IMG/VR virus record: IMGVR_UViG_3300042504_002519
Coordinates: 1-64,000 of that record
Length of the DNA: 64,000 nt
From: a virus
Strand: one strand, 5' to 3'
Below the pieces are notes generated by a model. The model saw only the letters and a list, made by a program, of their open reading frames with translations, was not told the DNA's origin and ran no database searches. Position numbers and translations under genes: made by a program. Below, piece after piece: positions 2,202 through 63,282 of the stretch (within the stretch, counting starts at the first letter, position 1; each line of letters begins with the position of its first letter).

Positions 2202-2881
2202 ACTGGACTCCCACGCTAGTGGGGATACTTGGCGACGTAGGATCCACCCCCACGAATGTGTGGGTCAAGGGCTGTCAGGATCTACCCCCACCGCAGTGGG
2301 GAACGCTAGCTGAGCCAGGGTGAAAAACTCCCACGATGGCGGGTAAGTTCCTGGACGGACTCCCACGGAGTGGGTTGATTTGTGTAGAGACAGACTCCCA
2401 CGGGGTGGGATAAGCGGGAACTATCGGAAAAACTCCCACCGAAGTGGGGAAGAAATACCTGAGCTAGGGCGACAGACTCCCACAATGGTGGGGCTAGTAG
2501 GCCCGGGCAATGGCAGACAGACTCCCACGGGGGTGGGGTGCATGAGTTAACCGCAAATTGACAGACCCCCACTTCGGTGGGGTGCGGGAACTGTCCCTGA
2601 TCGACAGACCCCCACCGGGGTGGGGCTAGCTGGCCTGAGGAAAGGGACAAACCCCCACCGAAATGGGGAGGTGGTTGCCAGGGCCTAGCCCATGTGCCTG
2701 CGGGCGTCGTAAGATCCACTCCCACCGAGTGGGGAGGTGTTTGCGAGAGCCGGGTACTAAGCCGGTAGCTAGGCCTTCTCACGAAAAACCCCCACCCTGG
2801 TGGGATGTGCTTTGCGAGAGCTAGTAAGCCACCAATTCTGCCCAGATCTTCACTAGAAGCACCCCCACCGAAGTGGGATCC
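2202..2881 (-). CRISPR. CRISPR array A (about 15 degenerate type I-E-like repeats; 3 long spacers, then short units)
   Basis: Repeat core CCCCAC-N4-GTGGGG/A-GTNNNTC; periods 73,70,67 then 43,43,44,45,44,38,35,32,43,38,39. Confidence 0.9.
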
Positions 2882-3290: not shown

Positions 3291-4109
3291 CTACCCCGCC
3301 ACAACCCATTCCTTCCACGCCAGCGGGCTAGCCTGGTTCAGGATCATGCCCGATACCCTGACAGGCCCCGTCAGATCGAACTCGGCTAGGCCTTTGGTTA
3401 GATGGCGCAGGCTGGCCCGGCCAAGGGACCATGGATCGACCAGGGTGCATTTCACCCCAGCAGCCACCACGATCCCGTCAGGGAACGCCTGGAGTCGCCG
3501 CCATGGCCACATGAGGTATTGCACCAGATCGGGGTTGTCAGCGTCCAGCGTCTCGGCGTAGTCGATGGGGCGCTTCCACCAGGGCACCCAGGACGATGCC
3601 GGCGCCGCATTGAGTTCCAGGAAGTCCGCTAGGGTATCGCCCCACTTCCAGGCCACCAGCTGGCCCATGTGGCTGGGCTTAGGCCCGCTGATCGGCAGGC
3701 CTTTTACCTGGGCCTTGAGCCCGGGCCTATCGCAGAAGTAGGCGGTGACTAGCGCCTTGATCAGGTCGGCCTCGGTTGGGCTGGCCAGGAAGTTGCGGGG
3801 CACCAGGGCAGGGCCGGAACCATCCATCAGGTCCATGATCGCCTGCGGGCTACGGATGGAGGCCTCAGGCAGGCCTGTTACCTGCAGGAATCCTGGCTCG
3901 CCCCAGTTGTTCCACAGCGGCATATCGCCTGGCAATGGCTGGTTTTTCATAGTGACGCTGGCCATAGCCAGCAGCAGGCGTAGGAACGCCTGGCGGGTGA
4001 GGTGGCCTTCGCTGATGTCGGTGTAGGCTTCAGGGCTGGCCAGTAGGTCGGCCAGGCTGGCGGTGCCCTGGGGGGTGGCAATGCAGGGGTAAGTAAAGAT
4101 GTCGGCCAT
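3291..4109 (-). CDS. cas8e: Truncated Cas8e (Cse1/CasA)-like large subunit, 272 aa
   Basis: Probable start MADIFTYPCI with GGAG RBS; Cse1-like motifs SLADLL, AFLRLLLA, FLQV, GDTLADFLELN, PWW, YLMWPWRRL, DPW; about half normal length. Confidence 0.75.
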   Translation of the reverse strand: MADIFTYPCIATPQGTASLADLLASPEAYTDISEGHLTRQAFLRLLLAMASVTMKNQPLPGDMPLWNNWGEPGFLQVTGLPEASIRSPQAIMDLMDGSGPALVPRNFLASPTEADLIKALVTAYFCDRPGLKAQVKGLPISGPKPSHMGQLVAWKWGDTLADFLELNAAPASSWVPWWKRPIDYAETLDADNPDLVQYLMWPWRRLQAFPDGIVVAAGVKCTLVDPWSLGRASLRHLTKGLAEFDLTGPVRVSGMILNQASPLAWKEWVVAG

Positions 4110-4178
4110 GTGGTTCTCCAGATAACGAAAAAGTGTTACTATCCAATTGTAAGCCATTAGTTGGGTTGCGAGCCGCAG

Positions 4179-4823
4179 ATGAATTTCCCACATGATGTTG
4201 TCAGAGATGCCTGGGCCGTCCGCCATGGTGGCCGCACCGAGGTGTCCGTAGGCCAGGACCGCATTGATATCGTTGTTGATGGCGACCAGTACGACACGCT
4301 GGTGGAGGTAAAGCCTGCCCACCAGGTGCGGGAGGCCATCGGCCAGGCCAATAGCTACCAGAGACGCTGGACTCGGCCCAGCAAAAAGCACTTGCTGCTA
4401 TTTCATGAGACTGGCCTACCGGCTAAGTCTACGGTGGAGCGCCTACGGACCCACCAAGCCTCCGGTGAGTTGTCCAGCTTCACATGGGAGATAGTGCCAG
4501 CGGTGCCCCGGCCTAGCTACCACATTGCTGGGGTGCCGATCAGCTTTGAGCGGGCTAAGGCAGATATTTGCGGCCATGTGGCCCGCATCAAGCGCAGTTT
4601 CCAGGATGGCCCTATTGCCGCCAACGATAGGGCTTTCCTGCACTACCTAATTGTCGGCGGCCAACGCCAGGCCCAGGGCGCCCAGCTAGCCTGGGGCGAC
4701 AAGGGTATTGAGCTGCAGGTAGTGCGGTTCGACAACAACGTGTTTGGCTTGTCTGCCCGATCCGCTGCGGTGGACTGGCTCAGACAGGCTAACTACAAAG
4801 CTGTTTACGGAGGATCACGATAA
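4179..4823 (+). CDS. PD-(D/E)xK nuclease with a C-terminal DCL/DUF3223-like domain, first gene of the cas operon
   Basis: E..RIDIV..LVEVK..AIGQANSY motif; stop overlaps the cas6 start (TAATG). Confidence 0.7.
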   Translation: MNFPHDVVRDAWAVRHGGRTEVSVGQDRIDIVVDGDQYDTLVEVKPAHQVREAIGQANSYQRRWTRPSKKHLLLFHETGLPAKSTVERLRTHQASGELSSFTWEIVPAVPRPSYHIAGVPISFERAKADICGHVARIKRSFQDGPIAANDRAFLHYLIVGGQRQAQGAQLAWGDKGIELQVVRFDNNVFGLSARSAAVDWLRQANYKAVYGGSR

Positions 4824-5506
4824 TGCTGTATTTGTCACGTTTTGCCCGGCCAGATGGCCATGGTAGCCTGCACCGCTATGTGATGGCGGGTTTTCCGGAT
4901 GATCTGGGCCCAGACCCCCGCAAGCAAGCTGGGGTGTTGTTTCGGGTTCAAGTCAATCGGGAGCCGGATTTTTTCGCTGCTGAAAATGACAATGAGTTGA
5001 TTGATAAGCGCGAATGCGCTGAAGGCGGATCCATTCTGGTGCAGTCAACCATGAAGCCGAAATGGCCAAAAAGCTATGAAGCTGAAGTGAAGCTGGAATT
5101 TAAGCCTAGCCTGCTAAAGGCGGAAAAGCGCTACCGGTTTCGTTTTGGTCTAAATTCCGTTGCCCAAAGTAACCGAGATGGCCGGTGCCGGCGTTATCCG
5201 GTGCCTGTTAGCCAATGGCTGGCGGCCAGGGAAGAAATGCTGGGCGCTACTTTTGACATTCGCAAAGTGGAGTCCATGGTTCTTTACGACCATGTAAGGC
5301 GAGAGCATTACACTCGTTCATTCCCCATTCATGTGTCGGTGATCGACGGATATTTACGTGTCACTGATCCCATCAAGCTGGCTCAGGCCATCCGCGAGGG
5401 CATTGGCCGGGAGAAGGCCTACGGCTGCGGGCTGCTGTCCTTGCTGCCGGTGGTGGCGGTGACTCCCGCGCCGTCGCCTGCCCTGGTGGGTGTGGCTCAA
5501 ACCTGA
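4823..5506 (+). CDS. cas6e: Type I-E crRNA endoribonuclease Cas6e (Cse3)
   Basis: MLYLSR start, LHRYV..FP, ILVQS, YRFR, G-loop GIGREKAYGCGLL. Confidence 0.93.
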   Translation: MLYLSRFARPDGHGSLHRYVMAGFPDDLGPDPRKQAGVLFRVQVNREPDFFAAENDNELIDKRECAEGGSILVQSTMKPKWPKSYEAEVKLEFKPSLLKAEKRYRFRFGLNSVAQSNRDGRCRRYPVPVSQWLAAREEMLGATFDIRKVESMVLYDHVRREHYTRSFPIHVSVIDGYLRVTDPIKLAQAIREGIGREKAYGCGLLSLLPVVAVTPAPSPALVGVAQT

Positions 5507-5509
5507 GCA

Positions 5510-5573
5510 GTGGCCCCACTCCGGTGGGCGTGGATCGACAACCAAAAAGGCCCCACAGGCGTGGGGGTGGCCA
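5510..5573 (+). CRISPR. Two repeat units inside the cas6-cas7 intergenic region
   Basis: CCCCACTCCGGTGGGCGTGGATC and CCCCACAGGCGTGGGGGTGGCC, period 37. Confidence 0.8.
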
Positions 5574-5602
5574 CCAGGCCCAGTCCTTAAGGGAGGAACC
5601 TT

Positions 5603-6838
5603 ATGTTTATCGAACTGCACCTGATCCATGCCTTGCCGCCCAGCAATGCCAACCGGGACAAGTCCGGGGCACCCAAAAAGATCCAATACGGTGGTAGCTG
5701 GCGGGCCCGGCTCTCCAGCCAGTCCCAGAAGCGGGCCGCCCGGCAGCACTACGAGCAATGGATGGCGGTTGACCGCAAGGCCTTAGCCTTTCGCAGCCGT
5801 CGCCATGACGTTGCCCTGGCTACCCGCCTAGCTTTCGGCGATGACGATGACAACCTGATGGTGGCCCGGTTCCTGCTGGGCTTATTCAACCTCAAGAACG
5901 ACAACCTGATCCCGGCCATGCTGGAGGAGCCCAGCAACTTGCTGTTCCTCTCAGAGCATGAGCTAGACACCATCGCCGCCATTGCCGCCGACTACCCGAT
6001 CTTGTTGCAGGACATGCTGGAGCGGGCCCAGCGTTATCGGGCAGCGTTGGATCCAAAGCCCAAGAAAGCGCCTGAGGCTGAGCATCCATCCGCCAGGGAT
6101 CTGCAAGGTATCCGCAAGGCCCTAGCCCAGCTAGGTCAGCAAGTGCCCGGTAGCGTGGCCCTGTTTGGCCGGATGATGGCCAGCCTGACTGAGGCCAGCG
6201 TCGATGGCTGCACCCAGGTGGCGGATGCCATCTCGGTTAATTCCTTTGGTATCACCAATGTCAAGGGCATGGGCCAAGTGATTGGCGAGCCAGACTTTTT
6301 CACCGCCGAGGATGATGTCGCTCCGATGGATGAAGAGGCTAAGGCTGGGGCGGGCCACCTGGGGGAGCTGCCTATCGTCTCGCCTGTGTACTACCGCTAT
6401 GCCAACCTCAATGTCACTGAACTAGCCTGCTTGGTTGGTGACCCTGGGCTGGCCCAACAGTTTGCCCGGGGATTCTTGACGGCATTCTGCGCTACCCTGC
6501 CCACCGGCTATATCCGCAGCCATGCCCACCTAACCCTGCCTGACTATGTGCAGATTAGCTGTACTGCTGCTCAGCCTTACACCTTGGCACCGGCATTCCA
6601 TGTGTCAATCAATAGCTGCACCACCGACGACGACTTCCTAGCCCAGGGTATCCCGCACCAGGCCGCTGATGCGCTGCGCCAGTACCAGGACCGGCTAAAC
6701 GTCATCTACGGCGACAAGTCGCTGTACAAAGCTGAAGTGACTACCCAGCCAGGCTGGTTCGGCCAGCCCCTGGACGGGGCCATTGATGGGGCCCTGCAAG
6801 TAGCCATGGGTGCTGGCAAGGAGGTGGCCTATGCCTAG
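5603..6838 (+). CDS. cas7e: Type I-E backbone subunit Cas7e (Cse4/CasC)
   Basis: MFIELHLIHALPPSNANRD.SGAPK..YGG..RARLSSQSQKRA, ALFGRM, DFFTA.DD, GAGHLG, YYRYANLN, LPTG. Confidence 0.95.
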   Translation: MFIELHLIHALPPSNANRDKSGAPKKIQYGGSWRARLSSQSQKRAARQHYEQWMAVDRKALAFRSRRHDVALATRLAFGDDDDNLMVARFLLGLFNLKNDNLIPAMLEEPSNLLFLSEHELDTIAAIAADYPILLQDMLERAQRYRAALDPKPKKAPEAEHPSARDLQGIRKALAQLGQQVPGSVALFGRMMASLTEASVDGCTQVADAISVNSFGITNVKGMGQVIGEPDFFTAEDDVAPMDEEAKAGAGHLGELPIVSPVYYRYANLNVTELACLVGDPGLAQQFARGFLTAFCATLPTGYIRSHAHLTLPDYVQISCTAAQPYTLAPAFHVSINSCTTDDDFLAQGIPHQAADALRQYQDRLNVIYGDKSLYKAEVTTQPGWFGQPLDGAIDGALQVAMGAGKEVAYA

Positions 6839-7277
6839 GCTAGTCCTGAAGCTAGCAGGCCCCATGGCTGCCTATGGCACCGGGCCACGGCTGCAGCAAC
6901 GACTGACGGAGGATGCCCCAACTGAGTCGGCGATCCGCGGCATGTTGTGTGCTGCCCTGGGGATACGTCGAGGCCAGTCAGCGCCGGAACTGGACGGGCT
7001 GCAGGTGGAGATAGGCGAGACAAGCCATGGCGGAGTGTTGGAGGACTTCCACACCATCCGCGATGCTATCACCTATGACGGGGCCCCAGGCCGCAATGCC
7101 ATCACCACCCGGCACTACCTGAGCGACTTCAGTTCCACCGTTACCCTGCGGGGTGACTTGCAGCAGATCCGCACCATTGCCAAGGCGCTGGCCCGGCCCA
7201 AGTTCCAGCTATACCTGGGACGCCGTAACTGTGTCCCAACTGGCCCGATCTGGGCTGTTGCCCGGGAGGAAGTTTAG
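6831..7277 (+). CDS. cas5e: Short Cas5e (CasD), 148 aa
   Basis: LVLKLAGPMAAYG, PTESAIRGMLCAALG, DFHT, RHYLSD, LYLGRRNCVP; lacks the usual C-terminal part. Confidence 0.92.
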   Translation: MPRLVLKLAGPMAAYGTGPRLQQRLTEDAPTESAIRGMLCAALGIRRGQSAPELDGLQVEIGETSHGGVLEDFHTIRDAITYDGAPGRNAITTRHYLSDFSSTVTLRGDLQQIRTIAKALARPKFQLYLGRRNCVPTGPIWAVAREEV

Positions 7278-7278
7278 C

Positions 7279-7426
7279 CGGTTCCCCACACTGGTGGGAG
7301 TAGTTCGTGTACTGCTTTAGCTCCCCACTGCGGTGGAGGTGGATCCAATATTTATAACAGGCCCCACCAGCGTGGGAGTGGATCCTATGTCAGTATCCCC
7401 TACTTCCCACCTGGTGGGAGTGTGCC
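7279..7426 (+). CRISPR. Leaderless mini-array of 4 repeats directly after the cas5 stop
   Basis: Hairpin cores at 7284, 7323, 7362, 7405 (periods 39, 39, 43). Confidence 0.85.
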
Positions 7427-8423: not shown

Positions 8424-8838
8424 GGTGGACCCACTTCGGTGGGGGTTTCTCCTTCGCTCCCCCCACGGTGGCCACTATTCGGCCTAAGCAAAACACACCC
8501 CACTTCGGTGGGGGTTTCTCGCTTAGTGGCATTGCCCATCTTTAGCGCTGGCCTCGCAAAGCACACCCCACTCCGGTGGGGGTTGATCTACGGCCATCGA
8601 CAACGATCAGGCCATGCCTATCTCGCAAAGCAGGCCCCACCTCGGTGGGGGTTTCTCGGTCTGTGGCGTGTCGTGGTGGATGGTCTGCCTAACGTGACTC
8701 GCAAACACCTCCCCACTCCGGTGGGGGTTATTCGTGGGCCTACCTCTCCATCGTAAACGGCGGTTTCGCCATCCCCACTTCGGTGGGCGTTCTTCCAGCC
8801 CGTACCTCTCCTATACCCCACCCCTGTGGGAGTTTTCG
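8424..8838 (+). CRISPR. CRISPR array B (7 repeats)
   Basis: 36-nt repeat CTCGCAAAGCACACCCCACTCCGGTGGGGGTTTCTC variants; periods 69,68,69,76,62,about 43. Confidence 0.9.
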
Positions 8839-8872: not shown

Positions 8873-9760
8873 TTAAATATCCACGTAGTCCGAGCTGAAC
8901 ACCCCATTAAAATGCGCGTAGCGATCCATTGTGAACGACGGCTTCGCGTGTCCTAATTGCTGTGCAATGCTCCACCAGTCTGAGCCATGGGCGGCTGCGG
9001 TGACAGCATGGGCATGGCGCAGCCAGTGGGGGCTAGCCTGGGGCTTGCCGATCCTGGCCATGGCCACCTTCACCCATTGCCACGCGATAGGGTAGGGTAC
9101 CGGGAATATTTCGTCCTGGTCCAGCGCATCCTCTGGCCGGGCCTGAACCAGCGCGTCGTAGACCGCCTTAGAGCAGCCGATCTCTCGGGCCTTGTCGCCC
9201 TTGCCGTGGTGGATAGCCAGGAACACCCGCTGGCCGCGTAGGTGCAAGTCACACCACCGCACCGCTAGCGCCTCGCTGGCCCGAACGCCAGTAGCAAATA
9301 GGAAGCGCAGGAATAGCTTAGCCTCCAGGCTGGGTTCCTTGGCAATGGCCCGACGCATCTCGCCCTCGGTTAGGATCCGTTCCGCCATGACTGGCCGGGG
9401 CTTGCCTAGCCGGTAGACGGCGTGGGGGACATTAAATTGCAGGTAACGAATGGAGCTGCCGAACTTCCACAGCGACTTGATAGCCGCCTTGTGCAGGTTG
9501 CAGGTAGCATCGCTCCAGCGCTTCGGGAACGTGGCCTCGTAGTCGATTAGCATGGCCGCTGTGACCATGGCTAGCTGGTGGCAGTCGTGGTGGGCTAGCC
9601 AAGCCCGTAGCCGGGTGATCGCTCGACGGTAGGCTTTCTGGGTGCCAGCACTTCGGGAACGACTGATCCACATCTCGATCAGGTGGTCGTCGCTACTGGC
9701 CTGCTGCAGGGCAAGGCTAGCAGTCTGGGAGGGCTGGGAGGTGACGGTAATAGTATCCAT
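8873..9760 (-). CDS. Tyrosine recombinase/integrase
   Basis: SAM-like N-domain; TGVRASE, HGKGDK, HWLRH, LGH, RY catalytic motifs. Confidence 0.9.
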   Translation of the reverse strand: MDTITVTSQPSQTASLALQQASSDDHLIEMWISRSRSAGTQKAYRRAITRLRAWLAHHDCHQLAMVTAAMLIDYEATFPKRWSDATCNLHKAAIKSLWKFGSSIRYLQFNVPHAVYRLGKPRPVMAERILTEGEMRRAIAKEPSLEAKLFLRFLFATGVRASEALAVRWCDLHLRGQRVFLAIHHGKGDKAREIGCSKAVYDALVQARPEDALDQDEIFPVPYPIAWQWVKVAMARIGKPQASPHWLRHAHAVTAAAHGSDWWSIAQQLGHAKPSFTMDRYAHFNGVFSSDYVDI

Positions 9761-9764
9761 GGCT

Positions 9765-10457
9765 TCAGGGTGCCCAGTACCCTTGTTCCCCATGCTCGAA
9801 ACGAGCACTTCTAGCGGCGGTGAAAGCCTGGAGCAGTGGGCCAGCAAGAGGATCTATGTCGATATTGACTGAGGCAGAATCTACTATGTCTGATCCCGCA
9901 TGGCTTTTTAAGTCATACACTCCCGGCCAACATTCGTGACATAGCCAAAAATTTTCGTTTTCAAGCATTCCAATCATCCACCCTCTATGCCGCCAAGTAG
10001 GATAAACACTTTCTTCTTTGCAGTTAAATTGTGGAGGAGTATGCAGAAAAGCGCTTATATCATACTTGACGCGATCTGGGTTTAATCTGTATCCATTCAG
10101 CCTGTAAACGCAATTCTCATCTTCGGTGAAGTCTATCCAGGGCTGGCTCTGGATAAGCAATACCTTTTGACGGGAAACTTCTGCTAGTCTATTGCAAAGA
10201 ACCCACGCAGAATCGCCATTCTGCTTTGATTCGCCATTGCTATTAAACGTCGGGGACGCGACTAGCTTGGGCTTTATTTCTACCCATGCCTGCCAATCCT
10301 CGATCCAAAAGTCTGGAAGATACCAGTCCCCATCAAGGTTGAACCCTTCGGGCTCATAGGTCCAGTTCAGCCCCAGGGCATCAAAAAACACAGCCCACCG
10401 AGCCTCTAGCCTGGAGCGGAACCGGTAGCCACGGAACTCGGTTGTTATTGCTTGCAT
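9765..10457 (-). CDS. Phage PD-(D/E)xK-type putative nuclease
   Basis: FRSRLEARWAVFFD, YLPDFW, VEIKP. Confidence 0.7.
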   Translation of the reverse strand: MQAITTEFRGYRFRSRLEARWAVFFDALGLNWTYEPEGFNLDGDWYLPDFWIEDWQAWVEIKPKLVASPTFNSNGESKQNGDSAWVLCNRLAEVSRQKVLLIQSQPWIDFTEDENCVYRLNGYRLNPDRVKYDISAFLHTPPQFNCKEESVYPTWRHRGWMIGMLENENFWLCHECWPGVYDLKSHAGSDIVDSASVNIDIDPLAGPLLQAFTAARSARFEHGEQGYWAP

Positions 10458-20444: not shown

Positions 20445-20626
20445 GCGCCACCATCGCCCGGCTGCGCCCCTGCCTGGCCGGGCGGCTATCCATTTTTCTG
20501 CATACACGGGCCCAGTACTTACGCCAGATCATTGCTAGGCACCCTGAGGATGGGGCTGCACAGCACGAACTGGAGCTAGTGCTAGCCCAGATCCGATACC
20601 TACCCTTTATTGAGGAACGACCATGA
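20441..20626 (+). CDS. Hypothetical protein
   Basis: Overlapping start/stop with both neighbours. Confidence 0.5.
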   Translation: MSATIARLRPCLAGRLSIFLHTRAQYLRQIIARHPEDGAAQHELELVLAQIRYLPFIEERP

Positions 20627-20959
20627 ACTTACCCGCTGACCCTACCCGCACCGAGATCTTGGCCTACCTGCTGGCCTACTCAGCCTACTGGCGGGGTGAA
20701 CTAGAGAGCGCTATGGATGCGGCCAATGTGCCGTCGAGCAGCATTAACGCCATCCAGGGCGACTTATCTGCCGCCCTGTTTGCTGAAACGACCATGAACT
20801 TACCCGCTGACCCTACCCGCTCCGAGGTGCTGGCCTACCTGCTGGCCTACTCAGCCTACTGGCGGGGTGAACTAGAGAGCGCTATGGATGCGGCCAATGT
20901 GCCGTCGAGCAGCATTAACGCCATCCAGGGCGACTTATCTGCCGCCCTGTTTGCTGAAA
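20616..20959 (+). repeat. 171-bp near-perfect tandem duplication
   Basis: Units start at 20616 and 20787. Confidence 0.95.
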
Positions 20960-21003
20960 TGGCCAGAGTAAACCAAGCCCGTATGGAGGATGACGGCCTA
21001 TGA
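20623..21003 (+). CDS. Hypothetical protein built from a 57-aa tandem duplication
   Basis: MNLPADPTR... occurs twice. Confidence 0.65.
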   Translation: MNLPADPTRTEILAYLLAYSAYWRGELESAMDAANVPSSSINAIQGDLSAALFAETTMNLPADPTRSEVLAYLLAYSAYWRGELESAMDAANVPSSSINAIQGDLSAALFAEMARVNQARMEDDGL

Positions 21004-21349: not shown

Positions 21350-21441
21350 CTAGCGAAGCTTTTTTGCTGCCATCTAAACCCCGGCTATAAGCTGGGGTTT
21401 TTGCTTTGGGCACTATTTAAGTAAGTGCTGGTTGTAACAAA

Positions 21442-22302
21442 ATGTTGACCACGCGACGGCTATCAGATGAAGTCCTCGAAATCCGGATCCGCTACACCGG
21501 GGAGGAAACCTATCACTTTTTGTTGGCCAGCGACATTCACCTGGATAACCCAAAGTGTGATCGCAAGTTATTCTTTTCTCACCTCGACAAAATGAAGGCT
21601 CTCGGTGGTAGGGCCTTATTTTTTGGTGATGTGCTATGCCTGATGCAGGGCAAGCGCGACAAGCGGGGCAGCAAGGCCAGCATTCGCCCCGAGCACCAGG
21701 GCGCCAACTACTTTGACTTGGTATTCAAGGAGTCCGCTGACATTCTGGCACCCTACGGCCAGGAGATCCTAATGATGGGCAACGGCAACCATGAGACAGC
21801 CATCATCAACCACCAGGAGATAGATCCCCTGGCTAATGTGGTACAGCAGCTGCGGGGCCGCCACGGGGCCATCACCGAGCACATGGGCTATCAGGGCTGG
21901 ATCCGGTTTGTGTTTTACAAAGAACGGGGCCGAGGCGTCGAGGCTGTTCGGCGGTGCAACCTGTTCTTTCACCACGGGGCCTGGGGTGGTATTGTCACCA
22001 AGGGCACCATGGGCGGTGGCCGGTATGCCAGCATTGCACCGGACGCGGATATTATCGTCAATGGCCACAATCACGAGCGCAGCATCGTTTCTCACCCTTG
22101 CTACCGGTTGATCGAAACCGGCAAGGTGCGGGTGACGCCCCGATACCACGTGCAGTCTGGCACCTACAAGGAGGAGTTCGCTGGTAGCAACGGCTGGGCG
22201 GTGGAGCGGATCGTCATGCCGAAATCTCTAGGCGGCGTCTGGCTGAGGCTGACTCCCACTAAGTCCGCTGGCGTTGTGGTTTCACTGGAACCGGCTAGCT
22301 GA
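21442..22302 (+). CDS. Calcineurin-like metallophosphoesterase
   Basis: SDIH, GD, GNHE, HHG, GHNH motifs. Confidence 0.88.
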   Translation: MLTTRRLSDEVLEIRIRYTGEETYHFLLASDIHLDNPKCDRKLFFSHLDKMKALGGRALFFGDVLCLMQGKRDKRGSKASIRPEHQGANYFDLVFKESADILAPYGQEILMMGNGNHETAIINHQEIDPLANVVQQLRGRHGAITEHMGYQGWIRFVFYKERGRGVEAVRRCNLFFHHGAWGGIVTKGTMGGGRYASIAPDADIIVNGHNHERSIVSHPCYRLIETGKVRVTPRYHVQSGTYKEEFAGSNGWAVERIVMPKSLGGVWLRLTPTKSAGVVVSLEPAS

Positions 22303-22314
22303 AATCGGTTAACT

Positions 22315-22356
22315 GTGCTATAGTAAAGGACAGGAACCTTGAAAATTTGGTGGTAA
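22315..22356 (+). promoter_or_regulatory. Array C leader
   Basis: GTGCTATAGT..CAGGAACCTTGAAAATTTGGTGGTAAG. Confidence 0.8.
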
Positions 22357-22863
22357 GTCGACCCACTTTGGTGGGAGTTTTTCAAGGTCTATCGTCAGTC
22401 ACCCCTGCTACCGGCTATACTGGCCTGGATCCCACTTCGGTGGGGGTTTTTCGCACTCAGTCGGTAGCCACTCGCGGCCAGCGCCAAAGCCTACCCCACC
22501 CCAGTGGGGGTTTATCTGGGAGTTTTTCGCCACCCCTGCTACCGGATGATCGAAACCACGCTGGCCTGGATCCCACCCTGGTGGGCGTTTTTCGCTCGAT
22601 AAGGGATCCCCATTTTGGTGGGGGTGTATCCGAAGACTGGCAACGATATGGCCCCACTTCGGTGGGAGTGGTTCTTTCCCCGTGGTTAGCCCCGCGCTGG
22701 TGGGGGTGGCTCTCGCTTTGTGCCCGCCCCACCCTGGTGGGAGTTCGTCCCAACTCTGGTTGTACCCCATCCTGGTGGGGGTTTATCTTGACTATGGCGA
22801 CTCCCCACTGCTGTGGGAGTGTGTCAATCTGCAGTTCGCCCCCCACTCTGGTGGGAGTAAAAC
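22357..22863 (+). CRISPR. CRISPR array C (11 repeats plus one partial)
   Basis: Three long units then periods 37,44,38,37,38,38,38; terminator at 22915-22939. Confidence 0.9.
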
Positions 22864-22961
22864 CCAATTGTAAGCAAATTGCGGTAGACTGGATTTGTTA
22901 GATGCACCACTCCGACCCCGGCCACGGCTGGGGTTTTTTGTTGCCTGGGCATTCTGGATCC

Positions 22962-23585
22962 ATGGCAACCAAGAAACCCACACCAAAGCTACGATCCAAG
23001 CATGCGCCCAAGCCAGCACCTGGTGCTAGGCGGGGCAACCGGCAGGTGGTAAAAACGTCCGGCCAGCCTGCTACGCCAGCCTGCAAGGAGCGGGCTTTTG
23101 AGCTGTACTGCGAGCTGGGGCCTCAATGGGCTGAAATATCCAGGCGACTGAAGGGCGAAGGCTTTAACCGCTGTGGCAATACCACGATCAGCGGCTGGGC
23201 CAAAGCAGGCGACTGGCACGCCAGAAAGCTGGCTTTGTCGGAGTCACCAGGCGAAGCGGCAAAGGTGCCCCACAAGGCCAAAGTAGCACCGCCCCCACCG
23301 CCTGCTACGGACATAGGCAGCTACCGCACCAAAAAGACCAACCTGGAGCACGTCAGGACGGCGATTGAGCAGGTGGTGCAGTCGATCTGCGACGCACGGG
23401 CCACCAGCGACCTGCGGGCCATTGGCAGCTTGGCTACGGCGTTGGTAAAGCTGATTGAGTTGGAAGGCAAATTGAGCCCCGCCACGGCATCCGAGCTAGC
23501 AGCCAGGGCCGTAGATCTGGGCCTGGATCCAGAGCAATTTATGGCCGCATTGGCGGAGCAATGGCGGATCGCCAAGGCTGGCTAG
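22962..23585 (+). CDS. Probable terminase small subunit (HTH, DUF1804-like)
   Basis: KERAFELY..EISRRL..TISGWAKAGDW..K; helical C-terminus; late promoter motif upstream. Confidence 0.55.
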   Translation: MATKKPTPKLRSKHAPKPAPGARRGNRQVVKTSGQPATPACKERAFELYCELGPQWAEISRRLKGEGFNRCGNTTISGWAKAGDWHARKLALSESPGEAAKVPHKAKVAPPPPPATDIGSYRTKKTNLEHVRTAIEQVVQSICDARATSDLRAIGSLATALVKLIELEGKLSPATASELAARAVDLGLDPEQFMAALAEQWRIAKAG

Positions 23586-24217
23586 AACCCCCACCGTGGT
23601 GGGGATAGCCTAGCAAGTGAACAACGCCCACAGGGGTGGGGATGGTTTGACGAGGGAGAGACGCCCACGGAGGTGGGGCTGCGTCTTGCAGGCAGGATCA
23701 ACGCCCACCAAAGTGGGGCTGGCTGCAAGGACGAGAGACCCCCACGGTGGTGGGATGTGATGCAGTTCTAGGAAGTACTCCCACCGAAGTGGGGAGGTGT
23801 TTGCGAGGGAGCTATCCACCGCCGCTAGGGTTTCCTTAGCGAGAAACCCCCACCGAAGTGGGGAGGTGTTTGCGAGTTGCCTAGCAGCTCCCCCAGGTTG
23901 GCCTGCTCGAGGAACCCCCACCGAAGTGGGGTGTGCTTGCGAGATGGCTAGGGTGATGGCACCCGACCTAGTAAGGCCAGAGAAACCCCCACCGGAGTGG
24001 GGTGTGCTTTGCGAGGGCCCAGCTGGATACCGTGGCATCGGAGCTATCCACCGAGAAACCCCCACCGGAGTGGGGTGTGCTTTGCGAGGACCGCCAAGCA
24101 ACTTTAAGCAGGTGAAACAAAATGAGGAGAAACCCCCACCGAAGTGGGGAGGTGGTTGCGAGACACGGCGCTGGCCGATAGCCAAAACCACGAAAAACCC
24201 CCACCGGAGTAGGATCC
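23582..24217 (-). CRISPR. CRISPR array D (12 repeats; 6 long spacers, then short units)
   Basis: Two identical 36-nt repeats at 23980 and 24053; periods 65,74,73,71,68,69 then 39,37,40,37,37. Confidence 0.95.
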
Positions 24218-24267
24218 ACCGTCACTTACCACCAAGTTGTCAAGGTTCCTACCTACCACTATAGCAC
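24218..24267 (-). promoter_or_regulatory. Array D leader
   Basis: GTGCTATAGT..AGGAACCTTGACAACTTGGTGGTAAGTGACGGTGG. Confidence 0.8.
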
Positions 24268-24316
24268 GGATCCACCAGCCTGGGCACCCTATAAAAAATT
24301 CTCTGAGGGATCCACC

Positions 24317-32875: not shown

Positions 32876-32931
32876 CTCCCACCATTGTGGGGCCTGCATC
32901 CCCTGGCCGAACCACTCCCACGCATGTGGGC
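32870..32931 (-). CRISPR. Two-repeat mini unit
   Basis: CCCACATGCGTGGGAGTGGTTC and CCCCACAATGGTGGGAGTCAAC, period about 39. Confidence 0.7.
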
Positions 32932-38304: not shown

Positions 38305-39599
38305 TAGCTATCTCTGAGGCTATCGAAGTTAGGCTCTCGCCCTTGCTGAATAGACTTGAGGTTGTCATCGAAGGTCCGCAGTTGAGCGATCTTGCGGATC
38401 CGTTCTTGGTTGCGGCTATCAGCAGAGCGACGCTCCCCTTCGACCATATTCTTTCTCATGTAGGAGATGGTCTCACGGGCAGACTTGACGGAGGGATACT
38501 CAAACCCGTCAGAATCGGTAAATGTATCGTCGTCTTTCTTACCCTTCATGCGATTCAGATCCGCATCATAGTCTCTGATCATCTTCTTGGCTTCACTGTT
38601 TATGCCTCGCTCAGGCCCAAGCTCTTTCAGCCCCCTTTGGATCCGATCCCGCTCTTGCCGTAGCTGGCTTACAGTTACATTGCGCCCTTCATAGATGAAC
38701 TTAGCTGGACCTCGCTGTAATGACGCGATTTCAGCCTCTTTCCGCTTGATTTCAGCTTGATCGTCTTTATAGAGCTGCTTCGCGTCTCGATCCATCCTCT
38801 TTTGCAAGGATTGATAGTGAGCAATGGCTTCCTTGGGTGAGTCCCATTTCTCCTGCGGGCTAATCAGGTCTGATACGGGCCGATCCGCTGGACCGCCCTT
38901 GATCCGAGCGATGTAATCGTCCATCCTGGCCTTTTCCTGGGCATACTCCTTAGCAGAGGTATCTGTCCTCGACAGGATGCCGTCGATCTCGCTAGTGAGC
39001 TGGCTAACCCGTTTCTTAGCGATTTCACCCGCTCCAGCTTTAAGCTTCTTCAGGTCAGCGGGATCTGCCTTGCTCAGTGCATCGGCAGCTTTTTTCTGGC
39101 TAGGGTTGAGCTTGCCACCGCCTACTATGCAATTCCGCCCCTTAGCGATGCAGCTACCGCCACAAAGCTTTCCTTTGGTGCAATTCTTGGTCTTTCCACT
39201 ACCCTTGGATCCACCTTTGCCCCTAGCAAAGTCCACCGCATACCATACCCGCTCAGACATTGACGCCGCTTGTCTGTTGGGGTCTTCGTTGTAGCTAATT
39301 TCGCCATTGCGGTAGGTGGCAATATAGGCCTCGGGTGGCTGCGCACCAGTGACACCAGTAAAGCGAATGGTCCACCCATTGGCCGGGGTGCCAATGTCGA
39401 TGTCATCGATGCTGGTCATCCGTTGCTCGCCTTCATCGAAGAAGCTACGCACCAATAACATAGCCGCTTGTACCGTCTTCCTCGCCCCATCAGGCTTACG
39501 TTCCGCAAAGTCTGCAACAAAGTGCGGATAACCTTGCATGTCGTAGATGATAGGCATGGCAGCGAATAGAATGGCGTCGCTTTTAGTGTGCCCAGCCAT
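38301..39599 (-). CDS. Cys-motif family protein 1 (true start probably near 39557)
   Basis: VDFAR..KNCTKGKLCGGSCIAKGRNC then coiled C-terminus. Confidence 0.65.
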   Translation of the reverse strand: MAGHTKSDAILFAAMPIIYDMQGYPHFVADFAERKPDGARKTVQAAMLLVRSFFDEGEQRMTSIDDIDIGTPANGWTIRFTGVTGAQPPEAYIATYRNGEISYNEDPNRQAASMSERVWYAVDFARGKGGSKGSGKTKNCTKGKLCGGSCIAKGRNCIVGGGKLNPSQKKAADALSKADPADLKKLKAGAGEIAKKRVSQLTSEIDGILSRTDTSAKEYAQEKARMDDYIARIKGGPADRPVSDLISPQEKWDSPKEAIAHYQSLQKRMDRDAKQLYKDDQAEIKRKEAEIASLQRGPAKFIYEGRNVTVSQLRQERDRIQRGLKELGPERGINSEAKKMIRDYDADLNRMKGKKDDDTFTDSDGFEYPSVKSARETISYMRKNMVEGERRSADSRNQERIRKIAQLRTFDDNLKSIQQGREPNFDSLRDSY

Positions 39600-39785
39600 G
39601 GATCCATCACCCTGGGCAACCTAGATCCAGCGCTATGGATCCATGATGAGTCAGTTTCAGGTCAGTGCCGATGATAGCCAGGTCCAGGCGATGCTGGCCC
39701 GGGCGGCGCGTCGGCTAAACAAAACGACGCTCCCCTTCGACCATGTTCTTTCTCATGTAGGAGATGGTCTCACGGGCAGACTTGC
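39596..39785 (+). pseudogene. Chimeric remnant: duplicate of the 5' end of the gpG-like gene fused to a fragment of 38428-38488
   Basis: About 39596-39722 resembles 40643-40768; about 39725-39784 resembles 38429-38488. Confidence 0.75.
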
Positions 39786-40607: not shown

Positions 40608-40691
40608 GGGGGTTCTTTAGCGCTATCCCTAGTGTGCCCACCCATGGATCCATCACCCTGGGCACCCTGGATCCAGCATGACGGATCCACC

Positions 40692-41198
40692 ATGAGTCAG
40701 TTTCAGGTTAGTGCCGATGACAGCCAGGTGCAGGCGATGCTGGCCCGAGCGGCGCGTCGGCTAAACAACATGAGGCCCTTGTATGACGACATTGGGGCCT
40801 ACATGGAGCGGGATACAGACCAACGCTTCCAGCGACAACAGGCCCCGGATGGTACGCCATGGCGTGACCTATCGCCTAATACCTGGGCGGCCAAGCGTAA
40901 CCGCAAAATATTGAACGAGACTGGCCAGATGCGTGACTCGCTGGCCTATGAAGCGACTGGCACTGAGGTGATCATCGGCTTTGCTGACAAGAAAGCCCGC
41001 TGGCATCAGTTCGGCACCCGGCCCTATACCATTGTTCCTAAAAATGCCAGGATGCTGGCCTTCATGACCGCTGGCGGCCCTGCCTTCGCTAGGCAGGTAA
41101 ACCATCCAGGCATTCCAGCTAGGCCAATGCTAGGCATCAGCCGGGCCAATGTGGAGGAAATTGGCAGCATCGTCGGCGATCACATTGGCAAGCCATAG
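40692..41198 (+). CDS. Virion morphogenesis protein (Mu gpG-like)
   Basis: RFQRQQAPDGTPW.DLS, IL.ETG, HQFG, IPARPMLG. Confidence 0.9.
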   Translation: MSQFQVSADDSQVQAMLARAARRLNNMRPLYDDIGAYMERDTDQRFQRQQAPDGTPWRDLSPNTWAAKRNRKILNETGQMRDSLAYEATGTEVIIGFADKKARWHQFGTRPYTIVPKNARMLAFMTAGGPAFARQVNHPGIPARPMLGISRANVEEIGSIVGDHIGKP

Positions 41199-63234: not shown

Positions 63235-63282
63235 AGCAGCTTGGGATAGACTGCTTTTAGTGTGCCCAGCCATGGATCCAGG

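What the first reader, a model, noticed from the sequence alone, without database searches (positions are those of the whole stretch)
22077..22560. Array C spacers target synonymous alleles of the gene immediately upstream: possible RNA-guided homing or kin exclusion
Seen: spacer 1 (22384-22419) reads AGG TCT ATC GTC AGT CAC CCC TGC TAC CGG CTA = RSIVSHPCYRL. This is the same peptide as the resident metallophosphoesterase at 22078-22110 (CGC AGC ATC GTT TCT CAC CCT TGC TAC CGG TTG), yet only 22 of 34 nt match, and both Ser codons switch between the TCN and AGY families. Spacer 3 (22529-22560) matches 22093-22119 at 25 of 27 nt (HPCYRMIET vs HPCYRLIET), with self-mismatches at guide positions 1, 2, 8 and 18. 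Inference: two guides hit one hotspot in different alleles carried by related phages, while the resident is recoded to escape. The target lies about 250 bp from the array, so cutting a co-infecting relative and repairing from this genome could spread the array, as free-standing homing endonucleases do in T4-like phages.
Basis: partly seen in the sequence, partly recalled or inferred. Interest (0 to 1): 0.9.

Follow-up and report, generated by a model that had tools for sequence, protein, structure and literature searches.

The report
Phage CRISPR spacers against sibling alleles
A lake-water phage that carries its own stripped-down CRISPR system has two guides copied from other phages' versions of the gene next to the array, which fits the known pattern of related viruses aiming CRISPR guides at each other; there is no evidence for a homing drive.

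Summary
Array C (22361-22864) is a genuine CRISPR array in a 77.5-kb lake-phage contig. The phage encodes Cas6e, Cas7e and Cas5e, but no Cas1, Cas2, Cas3, Cse1 or Cse2 was detected.

- **Spacer 1** (22385-22417) encodes RSIVSHPCYRL. This equals residues 213-223 of the upstream phosphoesterase-like gene, at 22/33 nt, and every difference is synonymous.
- **Spacer 3** matches 22093-22119 at 25/27.
- **Source.** Both come from foreign natural alleles. Related phages use the same codons (best 29/36), but no perfect protospacer exists in IMG/VR or in the JGI metagenome contigs.
- **"Recoded to escape" is not supported.** The resident hotspot is almost identical to that of sibling phages that lack these spacers. 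Synonymous diversity there is not elevated.
- **Self-protection** comes from ordinary polymorphism: a TCT serine codon removes the inferred NAG PAM, and there are seed mismatches.
- **Recurrence.** Two sibling phages carry array-D spacers that lie closer to other lineages' alleles of the gene between arrays C and D than to their own allele.

This reproduces what was described for archaeal virus mini-arrays (Medvedeva 2019), including the unexplained closeness of targets to arrays. Homing is possible among siblings but has no positive evidence here. I rate it a new variant of a known kind, of moderate interest.

The parts
21442..22302 (+). Phosphoesterase-like gene (286 aa; DxH / GD / GNHE / GHNHE motifs), the resident homologue of the targets of spacers 1 and 3
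   Evidence: ORF. phrog_7339 'DNA repair exonuclease', E = 4e-16. No Pfam hit. 237 IMG/VR and 151 metagenome stretches encode relatives.
22078..22119 (+). Resident copy of the 'hotspot' (codons 213-226, RSIVSHPCYRLIET), beside the most conserved block NGHNHE
   Evidence: 22/33 nt to spacer 1 and 25/27 to spacer 3.
22303..22360 (+). Leader of array C, conserved in siblings L009, L010, L141-L144
   Evidence: No consensus sigma-70 promoter was called here.
22361..22384 (+). First repeat remnant: 16-nt hairpin plus 8-nt tail GTTTTTCA. The last base is probably derived from the PAM.
22385..22419 (+). Spacer 1 (C1), leader-proximal. It is 32-35 nt long, depending on where the 5' repeat part begins.
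22420..22453 (+). Repeat: CTGGCCTGGA + hairpin + GTTTTTCG
   Evidence: family D10, 89% to 22561-22595.
22454..22483 (+). Spacer 2 (C2). Shared with sibling G002/L010 at 29/30; no target found.
22484..22529 (+). Repeat (CCAAAGCCTA + hairpin + GTTTATCT) followed by a partial repeat, GGGA + GTTTTTCG. This is a recombination or indel joint.
   Evidence: siblings carry GGGAGTGATTCC at this point.
22530..22560 (+). Spacer 3 (C3)
22561..22594 (+). Repeat: CTGGCCTGGA + hairpin + GTTTTTCG
22595..22864 (+). Tail of seven short-period (37-44 nt) hairpin-plus-tail units with no spacer-length inserts
   Evidence: A contig from an RNA library covers 22667-22905 exactly (this is weak evidence).
22914..22945 (+). 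Intrinsic-terminator-like hairpin plus T-run that closes array C
22962..23585 (+). 'Gene X' (207 aa, no family). Array-D spacers of siblings G002 and L144 match foreign alleles of this gene (homologous sites at 23459-23486 and 23513-23549).
23586..24237 (-). Array D: six long units with spacers, then six short units. It faces array C across gene X.
   Evidence: Its spacer content is hypervariable in lake samples.
4823..5506 (+). cas6e
   Evidence: PF08798 E = 1e-26; TIGR01907 E = 2e-11 at 44.5 bits, just under its 45.2-bit cut-off; PADLOC Cas6e E = 5e-28.
5603..6838 (+). cas7e
   Evidence: PF09344 E = 2e-66; TIGR01869 E = 1.5e-53, above its cut-off.
6810..7277 (+). cas5e (short, 155 aa)
   Evidence: TIGR01868 E = 4e-31; PADLOC Cas5e E = 1e-40.
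4179..4823 (+). 214-aa protein with a D...EVK motif and an alpha-beta-beta-beta-alpha-beta order. It is a candidate PD-(D/E)xK nuclease; this is an inference.
   Evidence: Weak SfsA hit, E = 3.5e-4, below the cut-off. Only close homologues are known.
3291..4109 (-). 272-aa protein of no known family, transcribed divergently from the cas operon. It is a candidate large subunit, untested.
   Evidence: Conserved in G001 and G006.

Best explanation
Array C is a working-type CRISPR array of a phage-borne, type I-E-derived system (Cas6e, Cas7e, Cas5e and two unknown proteins; no Cas1, Cas2 or Cas3 detected).

Spacers 1 and 3 were taken from the phosphoesterase-like gene of other phages that share this widely exchanged gene. 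Spacer 3 came from an allele close to the sibling lineage. Spacer 1 is the newest, leader-proximal spacer and came from a much more diverged allele. The two spacers share an exact 15-nt core, so spacer 1 may have been acquired by priming from spacer 3.

As crRNAs they would direct the phage's Cascade-like complex against co-infecting or superinfecting competitors. This is interviral conflict, or heterotypic superinfection exclusion.

The carrier is spared by ordinary allelic differences, not by special recoding. For spacer 3, the TCT serine codon removes the inferred NAG PAM, and there are seed mismatches. For spacer 1, 11 of 33 positions differ, including most of the seed.

The closeness of the target to the array recurs in sibling phages. 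It most likely reflects a bias in where spacers are taken from, because active arrays and DNA ends are known acquisition hotspots. A drive mechanism is less likely.

Shown: the array anatomy, the cas genes, the foreign origin of the spacers, the self-mismatch, spacer turnover, and the recurrence in siblings.
Inferred: crRNA processing, interference, the PAM, priming, and the cause of the proximity.
For: 1. The cas6e, cas7e and cas5e genes lie 15 kb upstream. The repeats have a 6-bp stem-tetraloop hairpin plus an 8-nt tail, which is the type I-E architecture.
2. All differences between spacer 1 and the gene are synonymous. The hit scores 40-42 bits against at most 32 bits for shuffles. Both sequences therefore evolved as coding DNA, and the source was a foreign allele.
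3. Natural alleles with the same codon choices exist: L088/L180 29/36, L195 28/36, G004/G005 26/33.
4. Sibling phages with 95-97% identical proteins have the same array positions but different spacers. L010 has C2 but neither C1 nor C3. L009 and L141 have no long units. Lake metagenomes hold many alternative fillings of array D. This shows active turnover.
5. There is cross-targeting among siblings. The leader-proximal array-D spacer of G002 matches gene X of G000 at 24/28, but its own allele at under 20/28. An array-D spacer of L144 matches gene X of G000/G001/G002 at 33/37 and its own at 30/37.
6. Using homologous alleles as proxies, the bases before the four protospacers are GAA, CAG, GAG and AAG. 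The last base is kept as the variable 8th tail base, as in type I-E adaptation.
7. The resident and all siblings have TTC before the spacer-3 site, so they lack the PAM.
8. [quoted passage not shown] Active arrays are protospacer hotspots in E. coli type I-E and in P. furiosus (PMC5737086).
Against: - No perfect protospacer for spacer 1 or 3 was found in IMG/VR, in the JGI metagenome contigs, or in 160 fetched alleles.
- No Cas1, Cas2, Cas3, Cse1 or Cse2 was found in this contig. Cas1 and Cas3 are also absent from sibling G006, which has terminal repeats and so is probably complete. Neither acquisition nor cleavage has an identified enzyme.
- No host array with this repeat was found in 185,579 species genomes; the 29 hits are close to my own estimate of the chance level (about 17).
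- The candidate nuclease is unproven; its model has pLDDT 39.
- About 60 other spacers from G000, G001, G002 and G006 have no recognisable target in the sibling or related genomes.
- The array-hotspot idea explains sibling-derived spacers, but not why the diverged spacer-1 source gene was hit at the same site. That step needs priming.
Confidence: 0.58

Rival explanations
1. RNA-guided homing, or array drive. Guides cut a co-infecting relative within a few hundred bp of where the arrays sit. Recombinational repair from the carrier genome then copies the arrays and their flanks into the relative. Guides against array-flanking genes are therefore favoured.
For: - All four recognisable protospacer sites in three phages lie within about 40-250 bp of an array boundary. 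My rough joint chance is about 3e-4, assuming the events are independent.
- Siblings share homologous flanks on both sides of arrays C and D.
- Variants with and without array units coexist in the same lake samples. One example is a contig that joins 22303 to 22843.
- The proximity was left unexplained in the literature.
Against: - The array-less phages that best match spacer 1 (G003-G005) share only the 800-bp gene, with no flank on the array side. Repair could not carry the array into them.
- Siblings already carry the cas genes and arrays.
- There is no elevated identity or conversion tract around the arrays between siblings: 88-92% there, against 70-97% elsewhere.
- The depth of the exact array contigs (about 80-120) equals that of the exact resident allele (about 85). 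The array is therefore not seen linked to other alleles.
- No nuclease has been demonstrated.
- An acquisition hotspot beside active arrays is an established and simpler cause.
Confidence: 0.12
2. The spacers are passive cargo. They were imported by recombination with host or other phage arrays, or are relics. The system does not destroy DNA. Instead the arrays act as RNA decoys against a host type I-E system, or the Cascade only binds and silences.
For: - There is no Cas1, Cas2 or Cas3.
- More than half of the units are spacer-less hairpin-plus-tail repeats.
- Array C shows recombination joints.
- Most spacers have no target.
Against: - Cas7e and Cas5e are conserved at 83-99% among siblings, alongside two conserved accessory genes. 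This argues for a functioning effector.
- The recognisable spacers are leader-proximal, i.e. recent.
- No host array with this repeat was found.
Confidence: 0.17
3. The spacers are self-derived, either from autoimmune acquisition that later decayed by mutation or as guides that regulate the resident gene.
For: - Spacer 3 is only 2 of 27 away from the resident gene.
- The phage's own DNA is the most abundant spacer source during infection. This is a general inference.
Against: - The 11 differences in spacer 1 are all synonymous. That cannot arise by decay of a non-coding spacer.
- Spacer 3 and the spacers of G002 and L144 are closer to other lineages' alleles than to the carrier's own.
- The resident lacks the inferred PAM and has seed mismatches, so binding for regulation is unlikely.
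Confidence: 0.05

Closest known systems
Virus-borne mini-CRISPR arrays of Sulfolobales portogloboviruses SPV1/SPV2 (Medvedeva et al. 2019, PMC6858448)
   Same: - The arrays sit in intergenic regions of a virus and have leaders.
- Close relatives have arrays at the same position with different spacers.
- Relatives carry spacers against each other.
- The carrier's orthologous locus is mutated.
- The targets lie close to the arrays, and the cause is stated to be unclear.
   Different: - Here the host is bacterial (lake water).
- The arrays are longer: four arrays with 3-6 spacers each, plus spacer-less tails.
- The phage brings its own Cas6e, Cas7e and Cas5e instead of relying wholly on host Cas proteins.
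- The matches found are imperfect (24-33 of 28-37 nt), whereas SPV spacers matched at 100%.
Type I-E CRISPR-Cas (the Cascade/Cas3 system of E. coli and Thermus)
   Same: - Cas6e, Cas7e and Cas5e families are present.
- The repeat has a 3' stem-loop followed by an 8-nt handle.
- The inferred PAM ends in AG, and its last base is carried into the array.
   Different: - No Cse1, Cse2, Cas3, Cas1 or Cas2 was detected.
- The repeats are 34-37 nt, with an extra 10-13-nt 5' part, not 28-29 nt.
- Spacer length varies from 28 to 39 nt.
- A divergently transcribed unknown protein and a PD-(D/E)xK-like protein stand in the operon.
Free-standing homing endonucleases of T4-like phages (Seg and Mob proteins); from general knowledge
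   Same: A selfish element sits next to the gene whose foreign alleles it attacks. The resident allele is protected by sequence polymorphism.
   Different: Recognition here would be RNA-guided. No cleavage, marker exclusion or co-conversion has been shown.
Phage ICP1 type I-F CRISPR-Cas (PMC9040626, listed; not opened, details from general knowledge)
   Same: A complete effector module and arrays are carried by a phage.
   Different: ICP1 targets a host-borne satellite (PLE) and carries Cas1 and Cas2-3. Here the recognisable targets are other phages, and the adaptation and Cas3 modules are missing.
Protospacer hotspots next to active CRISPR arrays (Shiimori et al. 2017, PMC5737086, which also cites the E. 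coli type I-E work)
   Same: The spacers come from DNA immediately flanking an array.
   Different: The known cases are self-DNA in cells. Here the source would have to be the homologous flank of a co-infecting relative.

Membership tests
Type I-E CRISPR-Cas | Cas7e (Cse4/CasC) backbone protein | tested here: met
   TIGR01869 scores 182.9 bits, above its 178 cut-off; PF09344 E = 2e-66.
Type I-E CRISPR-Cas | Cas5e and Cas6e | tested here: met
   TIGR01868 scores 108 bits, above its 69 cut-off. PF08798 scores 94.8 bits, above its 25 cut-off. TIGR01907 scores 44.5 bits, just under its 45.2 cut-off.
Type I-E CRISPR-Cas | Cas8e (Cse1) large subunit and Cse2 (Cas11) small subunit | tested here: not met
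   PF09481 and PF09485 give no six-frame match in the 77.5-kb contig. The neighbouring 272-aa protein hits no family. Note that the PF09481 control search rang in only one of 14 control genomes and not in E. coli, so this negative is weak.
Type I-E CRISPR-Cas | Cas3 helicase-nuclease | tested here: not met
   TIGR01587 gives no match in G000, G001 or G006, which has terminal repeats.
Type I-E CRISPR-Cas | Cas1-Cas2 adaptation module | tested here: not met
   PF01867 gives no match in G000, G001 or G006. PF09707 gives no match in G000.
Type I-E CRISPR-Cas | 28-29-nt repeat with a 3' hairpin and an 8-nt handle; 32-33-nt spacers | tested here: inconclusive
   The hairpin and 8-nt tail are present. 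However, the repeat is 34-37 nt, spacers are 28-39 nt, and many units have no spacer.
Type I-E CRISPR-Cas | 5' AAG-type PAM whose last base enters the array | tested here: inconclusive
   The proxy PAMs are GAA, CAG, GAG and AAG at four sites, read from homologous rather than true target alleles.
Virus-borne CRISPR arrays used in interviral conflict | Array with a leader inside a viral genome | tested here: met
   IMG/VR virus record with terminase, portal and protease genes. The leader is conserved in siblings.
Virus-borne CRISPR arrays used in interviral conflict | Spacers match genomes of closely related viruses of the same population | tested here: inconclusive
   There are imperfect matches to sibling or related alleles (26/29, 24/28, 33/37, 29/36) and no perfect protospacer. 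Siblings do co-occur in the same lake samples.
Virus-borne CRISPR arrays used in interviral conflict | The carrier's own orthologous site is mutated so that it is not targeted | tested here: met
   the resident matches at 22/33 and 25/29, with PAM-position and seed mismatches.
Virus-borne CRISPR arrays used in interviral conflict | Different spacers at the same array position in relatives (turnover) | tested here: met
Homing-endonuclease-like gene drive | Cleavage of the element-free allele near the insertion point | not testable with these tools
   This needs biochemistry or genetics. The candidate nuclease model has low confidence.
Homing-endonuclease-like gene drive | Recipient genomes share both flanks, so repair can copy the element in | tested here: inconclusive
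   This is met for siblings, which already carry arrays. It is not met for G003 and G004, which share only 21461-22257.
Homing-endonuclease-like gene drive | Co-conversion tracts or linkage around the element | tested here: not met
   There is no identity peak around arrays C and D between siblings. The hotspot is not unusually diverged.

The most novel reading that the evidence does not exclude
The guides against array-flanking genes form an RNA-guided homing or marker-exclusion device. The phage Cascade, with its PD-(D/E)xK partner, breaks a co-infecting sibling beside arrays C and D. Repair from the carrier then overwrites the sibling's arrays and neighbouring alleles. This would explain why virus-borne spacers target sites next to their own arrays.
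Probability: 0.1. Interest if true: 0.85.

Novelty: new variant of a known kind. Interest (0 to 1): 0.55.

Why it matters
This finding extends virus-against-virus CRISPR targeting from archaeal viruses that lack cas genes to an abundant freshwater bacteriophage lineage. The lineage carries its own Cas3-less, type I-E-derived effector and four arrays.

The puzzle noted in 2019 shows up again here: the targets sit next to the arrays. In this case several coexisting strains and many natural target alleles are available from lake metagenomes sampled over years. Two explanations can therefore be separated with population data and simple interference assays:
- an acquisition hotspot beside active arrays, or
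- selection for a drive.

The finding also shows how a single synonymous serine codon family (TCN versus AGY) can decide whether a conserved gene carries a PAM.

Tried and rejected
1. **Exact protospacer searches.** Spacer 1 (33 nt) was searched in IMG/VR and in the JGI metagenome contigs, and spacer 3 (29 nt) in IMG/VR. None was found. Ungapped scans of 160 fetched loci also found none.
2. **Search for the array repeat in IMG/VR.** I stopped that step and worked from coordinates. For the record, my earlier scripts held several typed window stretches, more than the rule allows.
3. **Host search.** The hairpin-plus-tail pattern gave 29 hits in genome contigs, about what I estimate chance would give (roughly 17). 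No array like this one was found.
4. **Isolated relatives.** The only hit in GenBank phages was a Rhodobacteraceae phage at 34%.
5. **Rfam and tRNA scans of the window:** nothing.
6. **Test of "recoded to escape".** Resident versus sibling differences at the hotspot are 2/45 and 5/45, against 67 and 86 of 862 over the whole gene. Family-wide synonymous entropy is not raised. G003 versus G004 shows 7 of 48 differences in the 45-nt hotspot. My Poisson estimate is P of about 0.014, which is suggestive only.
7. **Other spacers as diverged copies of this phage's genes.** None exceeded the shuffled controls. This includes the array-D spacer that another note likened to the tape-measure gene (27 bits) and the mini-array spacer near 75973 (at most 21 bits).
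8. **Structure of the 214-aa candidate nuclease.** The model has pLDDT 39, so no fold search was run. One homologue search for the 272-aa protein failed because I gave wrong coordinates, and I did not repeat it.
9. **Transcription.** Only contigs from one RNA library lie on 22667-23050 and on parts of array D. DNA carry-over cannot be excluded.
10. **Promoter scan of the leader:** no call.
11. **More siblings.** Searches with Cas7e or gene X as query found only three other IMG/VR contigs.
Full report
**What the window is**

The window is the first 64 kb of a 77,534-bp IMG/VR virus record, which is linear and about 69% complete. It carries a large terminase, a portal and a head protease. Logan contigs of lake-water metagenomes from 22 studies (2017-2025) hold parts of the 21400-24300 stretch.

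**The observation**

I read 21400-23200 directly.
- The ORF 21442-22302 encodes a 286-aa protein with calcineurin-type phosphoesterase motifs. It has no Pfam hit and matches phrog_7339, "DNA repair exonuclease".
- Downstream lies an array of a 16-nt stem-loop (CCCCAC-N4-GTGGGG), followed by an 8-nt tail of the form GT-NNN-TC-N.
- The core CCCAC-N4-GTGGG occurs 43 times in the window, against 0.18 expected.
- The hairpins form four main arrays: A 2210-2877 (minus), B 8430-8830 (plus), C 22361-22864 (plus) and D 23586-24237 (minus). There are also scattered single units.
- In each array the leader-side units have periods of 62-77 nt. They carry a 10-13-nt conserved 5' part and a unique insert of 28-39 nt. 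The far side of each array is a run of 37-45-nt units with no spacer-length insert.

- Spacer 1 and gene positions 22078-22110 encode the same 11 residues. They match at 22/33 nt, every difference is synonymous, and both serine codons swap family.
- Spacer 3 matches 22093-22119 at 25/27 (E = 5e-6).
- At the protein level, spacer 1 scores 40-42 bits and spacer 3 scores 32-36 bits. The maximum for shuffled spacers is 29-32 bits.
- The two spacers share an exact 15-mer.

**These are real CRISPR guides**

- 4823-5506 is Cas6e, 5603-6838 is Cas7e (above NCBIfam's equivalog cut-off), and 6810-7277 is a short Cas5e.
- Beside them lies a 214-aa protein with a D…EVK motif and the strand order of PD-(D/E)xK nucleases. 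This is an inference, because its model has pLDDT 39.
- A divergently transcribed 272-aa protein of no known family also lies there.
- Six-frame searches find no Cas1, Cas2, Cas3 core, Cse1 or Cse2 in the contig.
- Sibling G006 has direct terminal repeats, so it is probably complete. It also lacks Cas1 and Cas3.

The system is therefore type I-E-derived but is not a full type I-E member.

**Where the spacers came from**

The phosphoesterase-like gene is widespread: 237 IMG/VR stretches and 151 metagenome stretches encode relatives.

No fetched allele, and no contig in IMG/VR or the JGI metagenomes, contains spacer 1 or spacer 3 exactly. Natural alleles do use spacer 1's codons:
- L088 and L180 read AGG TCT ATA GTT AGT CAT … CGG CTA (29/36).
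- G004 and G005 read CGC TCT ATT GTT AGT CAC CCC (26/33).

All 11 differences from the resident are synonymous. Spacer and resident must therefore both descend from coding copies, so the source was a foreign allele.

Spacer 3 is closer to the sibling alleles (26/29) than to the resident (25/29). It implies a source reading …AGC CAC CCC … ATG ATC GAA ACC.

**Is the resident "recoded"?**

No.
- Siblings G001, G002 and L141-L144 lack spacers 1 and 3. Their hotspot is nearly identical to the resident's: 2 and 5 differences in 45 nt, against 67 and 86 in 862.
- Across 123 distinct alleles, normalised codon entropy at conserved residues is 0.76 in the hotspot and 0.81 elsewhere (one-sided P = 0.75).
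- The site adjoins the most conserved block of the protein (NGHNHE…HPCYR).
- Protection of the carrier is ordinary polymorphism. The base triplets before the four recognisable protospacers, read from homologous alleles, are GAA, CAG, GAG and AAG. The last base is retained as the variable 8th tail base, as in type I-E adaptation.
- The resident and its siblings have TTC before the spacer-3 site, because they use a TCT serine codon. Alleles with AGC or AGT create the AG.

**Relatives and turnover**

- Four IMG/VR contigs (G000, G001, G002, G006) and a few metagenome contigs form a sibling group. They share the cas genes and all the arrays.
- Their spacers differ. L010 has C2 (29/30) but neither C1 nor C3. 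L009 and L141 have only short units. L142 and L144 have another spacer in the first position.
- In three lake samples, exact contigs over 22271-22491 and 22490-22928 have depth of about 71-124, while the flanking genes sum to about 1000. Many contigs join array-D repeats across different inserts.
- G003 and G004 (89% protein identity) share only 21461-22257 with this phage. They have no cas genes, arrays or gene X. G005 is a 17-kb fragment of the same type.

**The proximity recurs**

I screened 73 inter-hairpin inserts from G000, G001, G002, G006 and L144 against these genomes. Orthologous array segments were excluded. Only four inserts have gene targets above or at the control level:
- C1 and C3, against the gene upstream of array C.
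- G002's leader-proximal array-D spacer. It encodes LENKLSPAT and matches G000's gene X at 24/28, but its own allele at under 20/28.
- L144's array-D spacer. It encodes DLGLDPEQFMTA and matches gene X of G000/G001/G002 at 33/37, but its own at 30/37.

All four sites lie within about 40-250 bp of an array boundary. Taking the genome fraction that close to an array in each of the three records, my rough joint chance is about 3e-4. Caveats: C1 and C3 may be one event, the G002 hit is near the control maximum at the protein level, and only 9.7 kb of L144 is available.

**Mechanism**

The best-supported reading is interviral conflict. The phage's Cas6e would cut the transcript at the hairpin base, and Cas7e/Cas5e complexes loaded with these guides would recognise competitors that carry matching alleles.
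- Spacer 1 is the newest unit. It shares its PAM-proximal 15-16 nt with the older spacer 3, which is what primed acquisition from a partly matched target would give. This step is an inference, and no Cas1, Cas2 or Cas3 is in hand.
- Closeness to arrays has an established, non-selective explanation. Active arrays and free DNA ends are protospacer hotspots in E. coli type I-E and in P. furiosus (PMC5737086). In a mixed infection the homologous flank of a sibling would be sampled, and perfect self-matches would be purged.
- The homing idea remains possible among siblings, which share both flanks. However, I found no conversion tract, no linkage of the array to other alleles, and no usable flank in the array-less phages that best match spacer 1.

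**Comparison with what is known**

Medvedeva et al. 2019 (PMC6858448) describe the following in portogloboviruses:
- mini-arrays with leaders in viral genomes;
- different spacers at the same position in relatives;
- relatives carrying spacers against each other;
- mutated self loci;

The present case is the bacterial, cas-bearing counterpart, with imperfect matches only.

**Verdict**

Foreign-allele guides are supported. Escape recoding is not. Homing is unproven.
- Novelty: a new variant of a known kind. Interest 0.55.

Noticed in passing
window 3291-7277: The phage carries a cas6e-cas7e-cas5e operon preceded by a 214-aa PD-(D/E)xK-like protein, with a divergently transcribed 272-aa protein of no known family. 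No Cas1, Cas2, Cas3, Cse1 or Cse2 was found in the contig. The 214-aa protein has only close (79% or more) homologues in 5.8 billion proteins, all unnamed.
   Followed up: partly
window 23808-23839 and 24016-24051 (array D, minus strand): Spacers D6 and D3 overlap by 12-13 nt: the 3' end of D6 equals the 5' end of D3. They therefore tile one unknown target, which has an open reading frame across both. This is the same kind of overlap as between C1 and C3.
   Followed up: partly
window 8873-9847: A tyrosine recombinase (XerC/D-like, with partial integron-integrase hits) lies directly after array B. It is the best-conserved gene among the siblings (95-97%). It is probably the phage integrase, and a role in array dynamics was not examined.
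   Followed up: no
window 21461-22257 versus G003/G004/G005: The phosphoesterase-like gene is the only DNA shared at 82-83% identity between this phage and otherwise unrelated roughly 76-kb phages. It behaves as an exchanged module. Sibling G006 lacks it altogether, and there array C is reduced to two hairpins.
   Followed up: partly
L144 7209-7274: One array-D unit of a sibling holds a 66-nt insert. This is either two spacers with the repeat between them lost, or a double-length spacer. Only the leader-side 36 nt match gene X.
   Followed up: no
window 22303-22843 and 23809-24223: In the lake metagenomes some contigs skip almost all of array C (22303 joined to 22843, with 20 other letters between). 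Many contigs join array-D repeats across different inserts. The arrays are therefore the most variable part of the population.
   Followed up: partly
window 1028, 5515-5565, 7285-7376, 12374, 32878-32930; G000 67788-67900, 75950-76010: Single or paired hairpin-plus-tail units stand just after the stop codons of several genes, including cas6e and cas5e. The same placement is seen in siblings G001 and G006.
   Followed up: no
window 20603-20944: A 171-bp tandem duplication (94% identical) lies inside ORF 20623-21003 and gives a protein with two near-identical halves.
   Followed up: no
window 39579-39730, 40625-40776, 63253-63280: A 147-bp repeat (89% identical) and an identical 28-nt motif ending in GGATCCA recur at gene starts. 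They may be a shared regulatory element.
   Followed up: no
window 23877-23907 and G000 75973-76008: Other notes of this scan liken an array-D spacer to the tape-measure gene, and a mini-array spacer to the gene next to it. In my screen both scored at or below the shuffled controls (27 bits and at most 21 bits, against a 95th percentile of 27-28 bits).
   Followed up: partly
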